NCBI GenBank assembly: GCA_951406725.2
Contig: OX597830.1
Span: 26,474,001-26,538,000, forward strand
Length of the DNA: 64,000 bases
Direction of reading: 5' to 3'
Origin: Octopus vulgaris
Lineage: Eukaryota
Shown: piece after piece, positions 12,971-18,900 of the stretch
How positions within the stretch are numbered: the first letter of the stretch is position 1
How the letters are laid out: the number at the start of each line of letters is the position of its first letter
The notes under the pieces: generated by a model
Told to the model about the DNA's origin: nothing
Database searches by the model: none
The model's input: the letters and a program-made list of their open reading frames with translations, nothing else
Made by a program: the position numbers and the translations under genes

Positions 12971-15900
12971 GTAAGTTCACCTTCTGTTTTCGCTTTGTTG
13001 TTGCTATTGTTATTGCTGCTGTTGTTGCCGGTTTTTCTTCTTGTGCAATATTTCATCAGCTTGGGCCCCGCAGACATAGGATGAAATGCCTTGCAGAGTT
13101 GACTATCACGTGATTTATTTTATTCGTGTGGATATAGTCTATCTAGGAGCACATTATTCCATGTAACCTTCATGTTTTTTAAAGACGGCAATAAGCCCCA
13201 TAATTATACGAGATTTAGTCACTCTTTCTAGCAGGTTAAAACATTTTGTAAATCAATCCTTACCTGAACTGAAGAACGATTCCACGGGCGAATTGAGGAA
13301 CATTAGCCTGAAATTGGCGCTATTTGTTTTATAGGTATTTGACCTCAGTTCAGGCTTGATACAGCAGATCTATAATAAAAAAGAAAACCTTTCAACTTTG
13401 ACCTTTGTATCTGCACTTGGTCAGTTATAACTTGTTAAGCACTTCGTTGTTCACTCAACTCTTTGTAGTTGTTAGTGTTGCAGAGTAGAATTTGAGGCAT
13501 ATTTGGCTACTATTTCTATCACCACGACCGTATTTCTTAAATGCAATGTCGACGCGGGCCGTATTTAAACTCAAGACACGGAGAACTGAAACGAAATCTT
13601 GAGGCATTCTATCACGACTAATTCACCGATTTCTCATTATTATGTAGCCCCAAACCCAACGCACATTGAGCACCCACTTATACTCAAATACATTCCAGCC
13701 GTGATCATTCCGTATATTTTCTAAGAATACTAAACCCGCAACTTCAATATTCAATAAGTTTTATTTTTCTGAAAGAGGATGTAAAACCCTTAAAAATTGT
13801 TTGGCTGCTATTTTTACCAGGTCAAGTGCCCAAATAGCGTAGGCTTCGGCAACCATCTTTTACCATCGACTCTGCCTTCATTGAATCATTAATAAATTCT
13901 CGATACACATCATGTAAATTTCTAACATGAAACTAAAATGTATGCTAATTAAAAAAAAAATTACAAGAATTACTTCGTTATTTTGTGCTATTATAGATTT
14001 TTAATTAGAAACATGAAAAGAAATTTAATGTTAATTATTAAAGAAAGTGATAAAGATCGTTAATGACCAAATTCTTTTTGGATAGCTACATAGACCCTCA
14101 GGGTTGAATATGGACACCTTTGCCCCCGCCTGTCCCAGATACACTTTGTTGATTTTTTTTTATCATTATCCTTGCTGTTGTTAAGGCGGCGAACTGGCAG
14201 AAACGTTAGCACGCCGGGCGAAATGCTTAGCGCTATTTCGTCTGCGTTACGTTGTGAGTTCGAATTCCGCCGAGGTCGACTTTGCCTTTCATCCTTTCGG
14301 GGTCGATAAATTAAGTACCAGTTACGCACTGGGGTCGATGTAATCGACTTAATACCTATGTCTGTCCTTGTTTGTCCCCTCTGTGTTTAGCTCCTTGTGG
14401 GCAGTAAAGAAATAGGTATTTCATCCGCCTTCACATTCTGGGTTCAAATTTCGCCGAGGACGACTTTGCCTGTCATCTTTTCAGGATCGATAAAATAAGT
14501 ACCAGATGTGTACTGGGGTCGATGTAATCGACTATCTCCGCTCAAAGTTGTACCAGTCCTAATCATCTCATCCTGTGAGCAACTAAGCCAACGTTATCCT
14601 CTATATTCTTCTTCTTCTTCTTCTTCTTCTTCTTCTTCTTCTTCTTCTTCTTCTTCTTCTTCTTCTTCTTCTTCTTCTTCTTCTTCTTCTTCTTCTCTGC
14701 CCTCTCCATTTGCTTCTTTACTTACTGATTTATTTCTGTTGAATTATTTTAATTTTTTCTTGTTGAAAATACTACTGTGGCTGGTGTCTTCTATAGCCTC
14801 GAGCCGACCAAAGCCTTGTGAGTGGATTTGGTAGACGGAAACTGAAAGGAGCCCGTCGTATATATGTATATGTATATATATATGTGTGTGTGTGTGTTTG
14901 TGTGTGTCTGTGTTTGTCCCCCCAACATCGCTTGACAACCGATGGTGGTGTGTTTACGTCCCCGTAACTTAGCGGTTCGGCAAAAGAGACCGATAGATTA
15001 AGTACTAGGCTTACAAAGAATAAGTCATGGGATCGATTTCTTCGACTAAAGGTGGTACTCCAGCATGGCCACAGTCACATGACTGAAACGAGTAAAAGAG
15101 TAAAGAGAGAGCGATTACTTGATAAAGAATATGAAGATAGAAAAGTGAAGCTGCCTTTAAGTGTTTAACGAAAAATGAGTGACAGATGCGAGACTGGCGA
15201 GGCTGCAGAGAACTCCCCTGAGCCTGCTCTTCAAAGCTAGAGGAATGGGAAGAGAATGCAATGGCAGAGTAATCTGGGGCTGGTCTTCTCCCATATTATG
15301 GAATAATCATGTTTTGCTTGTTGGATTGAATGTAAATTCATTTTATCCTTTATTTTTCTTAGCCTCATTGCACATGGTGTAAACCCGACTAGGATCAATT
15401 CGTTCGACAAAATTTTTCAAAGCGCTCCCATCCAACATGGCTATAGTCTAATGACAGGAATTTCAAATAAATAAAACATTCCGTCACTTTTAGTGAAAAC
15501 AAAAACCAACTCTTGAGAATTAGAAGTCGCAGCTCTACTATTTGTAGTGAAGCAGCTTCTGGATTAATACCAATTTTATTTCTATATAATTGTATATATT
15601 TCGTCTTCTCATTTCAGTATTGAATATATTGCTGAATGCCCAGGGAACAGGTATGTAAGTTAAGAAAGACACCACACACACATACACATATATACACACA
15701 GACATCTCAAAAGTAAATATACTCGCCTTTCTTTGTGCGGACACGACTCATTACTACGATGCATCAAAACGATGACAACATTAAAATCTGCACAAGGTAT
15801 CTGCACTAAATAGTAGATCTAGTATTTCAACCCATCAAATGACATTATTTGGTTTGTAGAAAAATAAATCTTATGAAAATGATGTCGAATATTTACTTTT

Positions 15901-18900
15901 CAGATGTCTGTGTATTTACGAGGGTTATACCGAAAGTCATGCAAACGTGGGCATAATATTTTCTTACCTGTTATAGGTAGTCCAAATTACATATATTGGT
16001 AGAGTAACTACCTTAATTTAGTGATGCTTAAAATACTTGAAAATCAGTGACAGAAGTAATATTAGTCTTTGCCTACATTCCAAAATTGGCACACTCTGTA
16101 AACAAACTAAACACATACCATTGTATAACAGTTATTATTTCCTAAAATATATCGGAAATACATCTAATAAGATTTCATTGAACTTCTTTTTAATTTAGAT
16201 TCAGAGCGATAGAATTTTTAAATATTAAAGACCTAGATACATGTTAGGATCATATACATATCCTTTATAAAATAATAATAATAATAATAATAATAATAAT
16301 AATTGTGTACAGTGCTCAGGTGCACTACAACTCATCTAAAGTGTATATATAATCAGGTGTTGTTTCGGCGGATTTCGGAAAGCATGAGGGCCTTAAAAGA
16401 TGCAGTGCCATGGCAGTCAACAACTGACGCAGGCAGTTTATTCCATGCTTCAGCAACTCTAAGCGTGAAAAAATGTTTCCGAAAGTCATGGGAGCTGTGG
16501 CATTCTTTAAATTGGCATCTATGTCGTTAATGTATGCCACTAACAAGAGGGGACCAAGGACAGATCCCTGTGGTACACCCGATGACATCTCATATGGTGT
16601 AGAGTCCTGAAAATGGTTACAGTCTTTGAGATAAGAAGAACTTCATCAGCCGGAAATATTTACGAGAAACTGAATATCTACTTTCTATACACTCGTGAAA
16701 AAAGCATCTGTGAATGCAACTATGCGTTACTTTTCATTTTTCAAATGTAATAATTAATAAATATTAATGAAACGTTTGTTAATTTTCAAAATCACTTTAT
16801 TAATTGATTTAAAACTAATTTAAGCGTATTTCTCATTTGTATATTTTACATCAAGTATTTGTTACGAACAACAAAAATATTGATTTAGTTATGAACTAAT
16901 TACAAATGTAACGATACTGCCAACCGTGGCAAATGTATGATCCTAACATTGCCTGACATAAGACAGATTTCACACTTTTTAGTATATACTAACACTGGAA
17001 AATAAATCTAACAGAGAGAGAGAGAGAGAGAGAGAGAGAGAGAGAGCGATTTGAGAATGTACAAAATAGGTGATGATGCGAACTGAATTAACAGCGTTAA
17101 TCTATTCAAAACAACCTAGATGGCACACCACATTTTCAATCTAAAATTTGAATACAGTACATATTGTGTAATGTTTTATTTATGTTATAAAAATGGCTCT
17201 TAAAATATTGTTGGAAAGTTTAGAACAGCAGATACTGTTAATCCCTTGACAAACGGTTTCTTCTCCATGCCCTATATCACTCAGCACCGAGAATCTCCGC
17301 TCAATATTTTATTAACTAAGTCCTAAATTTTATGTTCTGTGGCTGTCAAACGAATCATTAGTTTAGTGGTATTCGTTCTTTTAGGATACCAGAGCTTCCA
17401 AAACATAACATCCAATGTGATATGGTGTTCAGGACGATATCAATGGCCACCAACGCCTAAACTGCGTTGAACAACAAGAGAAGAAATCGGAGGAATTTGT
17501 AAATCTTGTATTTGATGTTCTTCTCATGGCATGATATGTTTTAAGCCCTTAAGAAAAGTTCGGTGTATCCACCACCACAGTGTCCTTGGAGATCATACTT
17601 CAAAGTTATAGTTACGGCTCCGTTGAAAAGAATGCTCTTTACATCAAAATTATTAAGTTTGAATTACTTGATTACTAGATGTGCGAAGTTTTCCAGATGT
17701 TGTTACAGGCATCAAATGCCGTCCCTTCAGTATCGGGTTATCTTCCTGACTGACGAATGAATAAGAGTACAATTGTTTTAAATCACCGAAGTCTTTCAGC
17801 TGTGTGCCATGCTTGGGACGAATAGGCTCGTAACATTTGATAGTGACAACATAAGTACCATATTGCTCACCCTGTTGTAATGTAGTATCGCAGATATGAT
17901 TTAAAAAGCCGTCACTATCATCTTTGAAAACCTTTCAAACTTTGTTCGAAGCAGAAACACTTTAACAAAAGACTTTCCAGCAGCAGAGGAATCTTCCGAT
18001 GTTCTTCTCATGACATGATATGTTTTAAGCCCTTATGAAAAGTTCGGTGTATCCACCACCACAGTGTCCTTGGAGATCATACTTCAAAGTTATAGTTACG
18101 GCTCCGTTGAAAAGAATGCTCTTTACATCAAAATTATTAAGTTTGAATTACTTGATTACTAGATGTGCGAAGTTTTCCAGATGTTGTTACAGGCATCAAA
18201 TGCCGTCCCTTCAGTATCGGGTTATCTTCCTGACTGACGAATGAATAAGAGTACAATTGTTTTAAATCACCGAAGTCTTTCAGCTGTGTGCCATGCTTGG
18301 GACGAATAGGCTCGTAACATTTGATAGTGACAACATAAGTACCATATTGCTCACCCTGTTGTAATGTAGTATCGCAGATATGATTTAAAAAGCCGTCACT
18401 ATCATCTTTGAAAACCTTTCAAACTTTGTTCGAAGCAGAAACACTTTAACAAAAGACTTTCCAGCAGCAGAGGAATCTTCCGAAGAGATACCCTAGCTCC
18501 TTCTTTCTTTGATCCTAATGGACTACATCTTTAGTCCAAGTGCTCTGTCAGTCAACAAACGCCTCACTGACTAGCAGGAGCAATTAAGATGTCTTTATTG
18601 TCTGTATCGCACTCATATTGAACCATCAACTATGAAGCGTCCAATATTTGTTTCTGAGCAATGATAATGCCTAAGCCTATTTTCTTTAAATACATTTCAA
18701 AATCTGACCATAAACTTATGAGAAAGTGTCCTGGGGACTACGTAAGATGAAGTATTTTGCTCAAGAACAAAAAAACGGGAGAACTGAAACCACGTTCTCG
18801 CGTACAACATCCTAACCACGAGGCCATATATATATATATATATATATATATATATATGTATAGACGCAGGAGTGGGTGTATGGTAAGTTGCTTGCTTACC

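What the first reader, a model, noticed from the sequence alone, without database searches (positions are those of the whole stretch)
15462..15962. ~500-bp gene-conversion-like tract centred on the signal-peptide microexon
Seen: 15462-15962 versus 42465-42959 differ by only 4 substitutions and one 6-nt CA-repeat indel (~99%), mostly in intron. Neighbouring homologous intron blocks (e.g. 15120-15390 versus 40310-40580) are visibly much more diverged, and mature exons are ~42-54% identical in protein. Inference: recent ectopic gene conversion homogenised the secretion-signal exon while the binding modules diverged. This conserved-signal, variable-mature pattern is familiar from toxin and defence-peptide families. 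The tract ends in a mariner-TIR-like sequence (TACGAGGGTTATACCGAAAG).
Basis: partly seen in the sequence, partly recalled or inferred. Interest (0 to 1): 0.72.

Follow-up and report, generated by a model that had tools for sequence, protein, structure and literature searches.

The report
Gene-conversion patch between octopus paralogs
Two old neighbouring copies of an octopus gene for a predicted secreted protein share one 500-base stretch that is 99% identical, likely because one copy overwrote the other a few million years ago; this is an ordinary, well-known process and shows no sign of a toxin-like conserved secretion signal.

Summary
The copies lie in two intact tandem Octopus vulgaris genes (A, B) for predicted secreted three-PAN-domain proteins, 27 kb apart. 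Both genes have separate orthologues in O. bimaculoides. There the microexon differs between them, and the tract's peptide matches B's orthologue (9 of 10) but not A's (4 of 10). So B most likely overwrote A, roughly 0.4-4 million years ago. Contigs from a second organism label bridge both right-hand junctions, so a mis-assembly is unlikely. The toxin-like reading fails: only the second of two signal exons is copied (exon 1: 5 of 9 residues), signals across the family vary like the mature part, and over 90% of the tract is intron, including a decayed MITE. The tract is not centred on the exon and stops 46 bp inside an old mariner end that both genes already shared. Single versus repeated conversion is unresolved. 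The scan noted similar patches in other gene families of this genome (unchecked), but nothing on this locus or family.

The parts
15462..15962 (+). Tract copy in gene A (inferred recipient)
   Evidence: 99.2% to 42465-42959; direction from O. bimaculoides peptides
42465..42959 (+). Tract copy in gene B (inferred donor); its left flank continues into sequence also found in paralog G1
   Evidence: B 42394-42484 aligns with G1 at 78.7% across the left edge
15618..15650 (+). 33-nt exon 2 of gene A (AG..GT, phase 1-1), second half of the predicted signal peptide
   Evidence: same peptide in NCBI model P0001 of the O. sinensis B orthologue
42621..42653 (+). 33-nt exon 2 of gene B, identical to that of A
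   Evidence: 33 of 33 identical
12943..12970 (+). Exon 1 coding part of gene A (MWKHLVFYF), first half of the predicted signal; not converted
   Evidence: 20/28 nt and 5/9 aa to B
37800..37827 (+). Exon 1 coding part of gene B (MRKCLLFCF)
15697..15912 (.). Old TA-flanked MITE inside the tract (B copy 42694-42909), 25-bp terminal inverted repeats 24/25 alike
   Evidence: 72% mean identity to 27 dispersed copies, which are 74% alike among themselves; 37/214 from their majority; folds as a stem, z -4.7
15917..16009 (+). Solo ~93-bp end of an old mariner-type element (B copy 42914-43008); the tract's right edge lies inside it
   Evidence: 21 dispersed matches at 73-83%; L068 and L069 carry it inverted at the far end; L069 remnant matches SETMAR/Mos1 weakly, E 0.045-0.2
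15390..15461 (+). Decayed repeat fragment in A (looks like a SINE tail; the label is recalled) that replaces B's ancestral left flank and marks the tract's left edge
   Evidence: two weak matches in the 368-kb region, 72% over 60 nt and 83% over 30 nt; repeat-type loose ends at 15388-15426
19648..30511 (+). Mature exons of gene A: PAN1 19648-19899, PAN2 24804-25040, linker 26734-26823, PAN3 30315-30511 (stop); frame and splice sites intact
44588..51830 (+). Mature exons of gene B: PAN1 44588-44839, PAN2 47631-47864, linker 50618-50707, PAN3 51634-51830 (stop); frame and splice sites intact

Best explanation
Two old, intact tandem paralogs share a 500-bp patch of 99% identity, most likely because a break in gene A was repaired by copying gene B (non-crossover interlocus gene conversion) once, a few million years ago, probably without selection on the exon it carried. 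The A/B duplication predates the split from O. bimaculoides (shown by the protein tree). Around exon 2 the two genes share only a ~550-bp island of homology, walled by insertions on both sides (shown). The copied tract fills this island from its left wall to a T-run inside an old mariner end (shown). Direction B to A is inferred from peptides. The age of 0.4-3.7 My is inferred and is a lower-leaning estimate. Synthesis-dependent repair is inferred from established knowledge; a crossover would have deleted or duplicated 27 kb. The MITE hairpin or the CA repeat at the tract centre is a possible break site (speculative).
For: Identity spike: 4/492 vs 363/2123; longest run 188 vs at most 71 in 2000 permutations. 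Tree of mature regions: A groups with O. bimaculoides P0007 (99/99), B with the P0008 C-terminal part and O. sinensis P0001 (93/95), G1 with P0005/P0009 (97/97). The microexon breaks this pattern: the tract peptide needs at least 1 of 30 nt changes to reach O. bimaculoides B but at least 7 to reach O. bimaculoides A. A rough likelihood ratio for donor B from the distance to O. bimaculoides B alone is 76-220. In A's introns 1-2 the tract exon is the second-best match to the O. bimaculoides A microexon (19 vs 21) and the only AG/GT-flanked one of the top 5. The tract includes neutral-looking DNA: a MITE only 72% like its relatives yet 99% alike between A and B. Run X5 (organism B) bridges tract to A-left, tract to A-right and tract to B-right. 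X3 has a contig of B-left flank plus 30 tract letters, and a second contig starting exactly at 42465 with B's alleles. Precedent: a 2,332-bp, 99% tract between dog CEACAM1 and CEACAM28 with 80% and 92% flanks (PMC2110893, passages).
Against: The background identity of about 83%, with no identical run above 49 bp, is near the limit below which conversion is reported as rare (mainly above 80%, MEPS about 200 bp; PMC3924818, passages). Direction rests on 10 residues from O. bimaculoides gene models, with no DNA. All 4 substitutions look derived in B (X1, X5 and X9 contigs show A's letter at 3 sites; most MITE copies show it at the 4th), and none of about 6 differences to organisms C/D is private to A; this fits repeated conversion somewhat better than one event (p 0.125 and 0.03).
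Confidence: 0.68

Rival explanations
1. Repeated (ongoing) conversion keeps the 550-bp homology island homogeneous within each species of the O. vulgaris complex, after a first B-to-A event.
For: A and B agree at all 6 substitutions and 2 indels where the A-linked contigs of organisms C/D (X8, X9) differ; 0 of 6 events private to A, p about 0.03. A/B divergence (0.8%) is not larger than reference-to-C/D divergence in the tract (6 substitutions). Once homogenised, the island exceeds a 200-bp MEPS (PMC3924818).
Against: If 15712 or the CA indel is counted on A the asymmetry weakens. X5 shows an A-only variant at 15951 inside the tract. Contigs collapse alleles, so B's state in C/D is unseen. O. 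bimaculoides A and B microexons differ, so homogenisation was not continuous since the duplication.
Confidence: 0.2
2. Selected conversion: A's microexon had lost hydrophobicity, and copying B's exon restored a stronger secretion signal, so the tract was fixed by selection.
For: The O. bimaculoides A signal has the lowest 11-residue hydropathy maximum of the seven compared (1.96 vs 2.54-2.94). The converted A allele is seen in all 4 runs laid on A, across four organism labels.
Against: The pre-conversion A allele of this lineage is unknown. O. bimaculoides A persists intact without conversion. No signal-peptide predictor or secretion assay was run. Drift over more than a million years fixes alleles as well.
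Confidence: 0.07
3. Assembly or polishing artefact: one copy's sequence was written into both places.
For: X1, X8 and X9 contigs show no break at the tract edges of A, and B junctions are not listed for X1 and X9.
Against: X5 bridges both right-hand junctions with more than 31 letters on each side. The O. sinensis B model P0001 carries the same microexon peptide, while A-flank contigs carry it in 4 of 4 runs. The two copies differ at 5 places. The listing has holes: X5 record 18 appears but not at the equivalent place.
Confidence: 0.03
4. Purifying constraint on a regulatory or splicing element keeps the block conserved.
For: The block surrounds a microexon, whose splicing may need intronic signals (general knowledge).
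Against: G1, G2 and G3 are only 73-77% alike over the alignable part and G1 shows no MITE match there. Decayed transposon DNA is as identical as the exon. The O. bimaculoides A exon itself differs at 6 of 10 residues.
Confidence: 0.02

Closest known systems
Interlocus (ectopic) gene conversion between tandem duplicates (review PMC3924818; passages seen)
   Same: Non-reciprocal patch of a few hundred bases between nearby direct-orientation paralogs.
   Different: Background identity of about 83% and identical runs of at most 49 bp put it at the low-rate end of the reported range.
Dog CEACAM1/CEACAM28 conversion covering leader and N exons (PMC2110893; passages seen)
   Same: A 99% block including a signal (leader) exon and intron, flanked by more diverged homologous DNA, with a repeat near the border.
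   Different: That tract is 2.3 kb and copies the ligand-binding domain, with a proposed decoy function; here only 10 residues of a predicted cleaved signal are copied and no binding domain.
Frog skin antimicrobial peptide signal exon, suggested to be homogenised by conversion (PMC13128954; passages seen); conotoxin superfamilies defined by signal sequence (search listing only, plus recall)
   Same: A signal-coding exon is more alike between paralogs than the mature exons.
   Different: There the signal is conserved across the family; here only one of two signal exons, in one pair of at least 12 paralogs, and the mature product is a ~255-residue three-domain protein.
Uncharacterised Apple/PAN-domain proteins of Octopus and Argonauta (NCBI/UniRef names)
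   Same: Same family; PAN_1 matched three times in P0001.
   Different: No function on record in those names; no PDB sequence match at E 0.1.

Membership tests
Interlocus gene conversion tract | Local identity far above the paralog background | tested here: met
   4/492 vs 363/2123 mismatches; run 188 vs at most 71 in 2000 permutations
Interlocus gene conversion tract | Tract history disagrees with gene history (duplication older than the tract) | tested here: met
   Separate A and B orthologues in O. bimaculoides whose microexons differ; peptide level only
Interlocus gene conversion tract | Non-reciprocal transfer from one donor | tested here: met
   Both genes carry the B-type exon; rough likelihood ratio 76-220 for donor B; inferred from 10 residues
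Interlocus gene conversion tract | Both copies exist in real genomes | tested here: met
   X5 bridges 3 of 4 junctions; the fourth (B-left) only in X3 by 30 letters; unbroken contigs in X1, X8, X9
Interlocus gene conversion tract | Homologous but diverged DNA on both sides | tested here: inconclusive
   Right side yes (41/50); left edge coincides with the end of homology in A
Concerted evolution by recurrent conversion | Species-specific variants shared by both paralogs | tested here: inconclusive
   Contigs collapse the copies; 0 of 6 events private to A
Conserved-signal, hypervariable-mature toxin/defence families | Signal peptide conserved across the family | tested here: not met
   Exon 1: 3-7 of 9 and exon 2: 4-7 of 11 identical among older pairs; A/B exon 1 is 5/9
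Conserved-signal, hypervariable-mature toxin/defence families | Mature region under positive selection (dN/dS above 1) | tested here: inconclusive
   0.63-0.64 for the three old pairs; 1.29 for G2/G3 on only about 10 synonymous changes (Nei-Gojobori)
Conserved-signal, hypervariable-mature toxin/defence families | Expression in a venom or defence tissue and bioactivity | not tested
   No expression or activity data were obtained
Mariner-type transposon end | Dispersed copies with terminal inverted repeats and a transposase remnant | tested here: met
   21 dispersed matches; inverted partner in 2 of 12 loci examined; weak SETMAR/Mos1 match, E 0.045, top 5 rows all mariner-type; no Pfam transposase hit for 3 fragments
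Secreted protein with a signal peptide | Cleavable N-terminal signal | tested here: inconclusive
   N-terminal hydrophobic stretch, hydropathy maximum 2.6-2.9, same start in model P0001; no signal-peptide predictor available

The most novel reading that the evidence does not exclude
A transposon hairpin at the tract centre triggered conversion between paralogs only about 83% alike, and the copied exon rescued a decaying secretion signal in gene A, so that signal repair by conversion kept a fast-evolving member of an unstudied octopod three-PAN family functional.
Probability: 0.06. Interest if true: 0.55.

Novelty: new member of a known kind. Interest (0 to 1): 0.27.

Why it matters
It is a clean, polarised and roughly dated example of conversion between paralogs near the identity limit for this process, in a mollusc. 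It warns that exon-level trees and gene models in this cluster can mislead; the public models P0002, P0003, P0006 and P0008 fuse genes A and B. The surrounding array of at least 12 octopod PAN-domain genes seems unstudied (no paper held 'octopus' with 'PAN domain' or 'apple domain', or 'cephalopod' with 'PAN apple': in the held library only) and may be the more interesting object. The tract itself changes at most about ten residues of a peptide predicted to be cut off.

Tried and rejected
Expression: no RNA holder listed. No cover of B-left flank in X5, and no B junction listed for X1 or X9: holes, not used as absence. Contig depth as a copy count: X3 tract contig 95.6 vs 66.2 for the B-left contig, X9 68-73 vs 31-50 for unrelated contigs, but no rise in X1; too rough, not used. 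Other conversion islands: all matches of at least 94% and 120 bp in the 368-kb region were listed, leaving out collinear G2/G3 matches. The only other single-pair match between old paralogs that was examined (C17:26635560 vs 26671098) is an insertion inside microsatellite with unrelated flanks, rejected; the remaining rows were judged repeats, local inverted or tandem copies, or the young D pair from their copy counts and positions, without individual checks. Unusually well-kept MITE ends (which would hint at recent excision): A has 1/24 and 2/25 differences, within the range of the 27 other copies, and no young copies were among those 27 (at most 83% alike); excision-triggered repair is not supported. 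A search for a short A-type N-terminal protein found no candidate. A protein search with the B PAN2 exon for longer proteins gave 1 hit of 7 candidates. The octopod venom paper PMC7656900 (passages) has no whole-word 'PAN' and no 'gene conversion'. One right-flank stretch of B could not be scanned against Pfam as a protein, so its Tc1 label is recalled, not tested. GENECONV and a signal-peptide predictor were not available; a permutation test and hydropathy were used instead. No structure prediction was run. No supplements were read.
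Full report
Observation. The two stretches align over 495 positions with 4 substitutions and one 6-nt gap in a CA repeat. A collinear chain of A/B blocks across about 19 kb otherwise gives 68-88% BLAST identity, apart from two 93% matches to a repeat that has 11 copies in the region. Nine non-coding blocks have 363 mismatches in 2123 aligned positions; 4 or fewer in 492 has probability 4e-34 at that rate and 4e-22 at the best block's rate. 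The longest identical run in 3712 aligned positions is 188, against at most 71 in 2000 permutations and 49 outside the tract. A genome search with the tract found only these two full-length copies among 43 matches from 40 of 147 candidates scored.

Organism and genes. Exon peptides of the window match a protein named Octopus vulgaris letter for letter (P0003). Genes A (12943-30511) and B (37800-51830) each have six coding exons with canonical splice sites and open frames: a 28-nt exon 1, the 33-nt exon 2, PAN1, PAN2, a linker and PAN3. PAN1 and PAN2 pass the Pfam PAN_1 cut-off; PAN3 scores below it. The NCBI model of the O. sinensis B orthologue has the same structure (P0001). The genes belong to a tandem array: five close paralogs (G1, G2, G3, A, B) and at least seven more distant PAN2 exons within the 368 kb examined, reaching its edge. 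The ten hits looked up, of 30, are nine named proteins of Octopus or Argonauta and one unnamed. The N-terminus is predicted to be a signal peptide from position and hydropathy only.

Anatomy of the tract. It holds 156 bp of intron 1, the exon, a CA repeat, a 216-bp TA-flanked MITE (15697-15912) and the first 46 bp of a ~93-bp transposon end (15917-16009). The MITE is old: 72% mean identity to 27 dispersed copies and 37 of 214 positions from their majority. The second element has 21 dispersed matches, an inverted partner in 2 of 12 loci examined and, in L069, a remnant weakly like SETMAR and Mos1. A and B lose similarity to this element at the same point, and its last 50 bp are 82% alike, so both genes had it before the conversion. 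On the left, B runs on into sequence shared with G1 (78.7% over 94 nt), while A has a decayed repeat fragment. The tract therefore fills nearly all of a ~550-bp homology island.

History. In a tree of mature regions A pairs with O. bimaculoides P0007 (99/99) and B with the C-terminal part of P0008 and with P0001 (93/95) (A is flagged as a long branch). The duplication is thus older than the split from O. bimaculoides, given as about 34 My, with O. vulgaris and O. sinensis at 2.5 My (PMC10700109, passages). The O. bimaculoides A models carry VNPVVNDLGT at the microexon position and the B part carries LNILLKAQGT; the tract encodes [10 protein letters not shown], at least 7 and at least 1 nucleotide changes away. 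A rough model from tree branch lengths favours B as donor by 76-220 on the first term alone. Corrected tract divergence is 1/24 of the non-coding background (95% range 1/9 to 1/87), or 0.4-3.7 My if the duplication is 34 My old; an older duplication raises this.

Independent sequence data. Of 24 runs listed, 13 hold the stretch or part of it, from 6 studies; I laid 5 of them, all contigs. On A (X1, X5, X8, X9) all four bridge both edges, and X8 holds the whole stretch in one contig. On B (X1, X3, X5, X9) X5 record 18 joins 254 tract letters to 94 letters of B's right flank; X3 record 9 joins B's left flank to 30 tract letters, and record 10 starts exactly at 42465 with B's alleles. Against this, X1, X8 and X9 pass A's edges without a break and X1 and X9 list no B junction. 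Pruning of short branches that lead into high-copy repeats could explain that (inference), and the listing has holes, since X5 record 18 is absent. Organisms C and D differ from the reference in the tract at 6 substitutions and 2 indels, all at sites where A and B agree; their A-linked contigs already carry the B-type exon, so the first conversion predates their separation.

Mechanism. Most likely a double-strand break in A was repaired from B, 27 kb away in the same orientation, without crossover (established mechanism; PMC3924818, passages, describes initiation by a break, lower rates near 80% identity, and MEPS near 200 bp). The tract centre (about 15712) lies in the left arm of the MITE, which folds into a long stem (z -4.7, 0 of 200 shuffles), next to the CA repeat; either could be the break site, but this is not tested. 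One event (0.68) versus repeated events (0.20) is open: no difference to C/D is private to A (p 0.03 for 0 of 6) and all four substitutions look derived in B (p 0.125), but collapsed contigs cannot phase the copies.

The toxin analogy. It fails its main test. Exon 1 is 20/28 nt and 5/9 aa between A and B; older pairs share 3-7 of 9 and 4-7 of 11 residues in the two signal exons, comparable to the 44-53% of the PAN exons. Mature dN/dS is 0.63-0.64 for three old pairs and 1.29 for G2/G3 on few changes: fast evolution, not proof of positive selection. The one functional hint is the weak hydropathy of the O. bimaculoides A signal (1.96 vs 2.54-2.94), which keeps a selected-repair reading alive at low odds.

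Comparison and verdict. This is a new instance of interlocus gene conversion, closest in form to the dog CEACAM1/28 tract (PMC2110893, passages); conversion of signal exons has also been suggested for frog antimicrobial peptides (PMC13128954, passages). Earlier scan notes describe similar patches in other families of this genome (149 notes fit, 8 shown; unchecked, not used as support); none concerns this locus or protein. Novelty: new member of a known kind. Interest 0.27.

Noticed in passing
G000:C17:26362000-26698000 (L034-L061 and the window): Tandem array of at least 12 octopod PAN-domain genes with a split two-exon signal, running to the edge of the region fetched; function unknown, no paper found.
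   Followed up: partly
window 19648-30511 vs 44588-51830: PAN exons are less alike at DNA level (64-75%) than aligned intron blocks (79-88%), and dS (0.55) exceeds intron distance (0.19); may be BLAST selection bias or estimator bias, or older intron conversion.
   Followed up: partly
G000:C17:26383000-26473000 (G2 and G3): Young duplicate pair, mostly 88-99% alike, with 23 non-synonymous versus 4 synonymous changes in PAN1 (dN 0.135, dS 0.073), a candidate for positive selection.
   Followed up: partly
P0002, P0003, P0006, P0008: Public gene models in three Octopus species fuse gene A's exons to gene B's; probably annotation errors.
   Followed up: no
G000:C17:26581881-26598786: Recent partial duplication (97-99%) among the distant paralogs; the first copy's PAN1 match starts later than its sister's.
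   Followed up: no
window 60954-61643 and 63282-63970: 690-bp inverted repeat at 99.7% around a tandem-repeat core, a possible young foldback or DNA transposon.
   Followed up: no
window 17485-18480: Apparently exact tandem duplication of about 500 bp in intron 2 of gene A, seen by eye; masked by the tandem-repeat step and not measured.
   Followed up: no
window 43006-43830: High-copy insertion right of the B tract with a decayed transposase-like frame (Tc1-like by recall); contig depth in the thousands.
   Followed up: no
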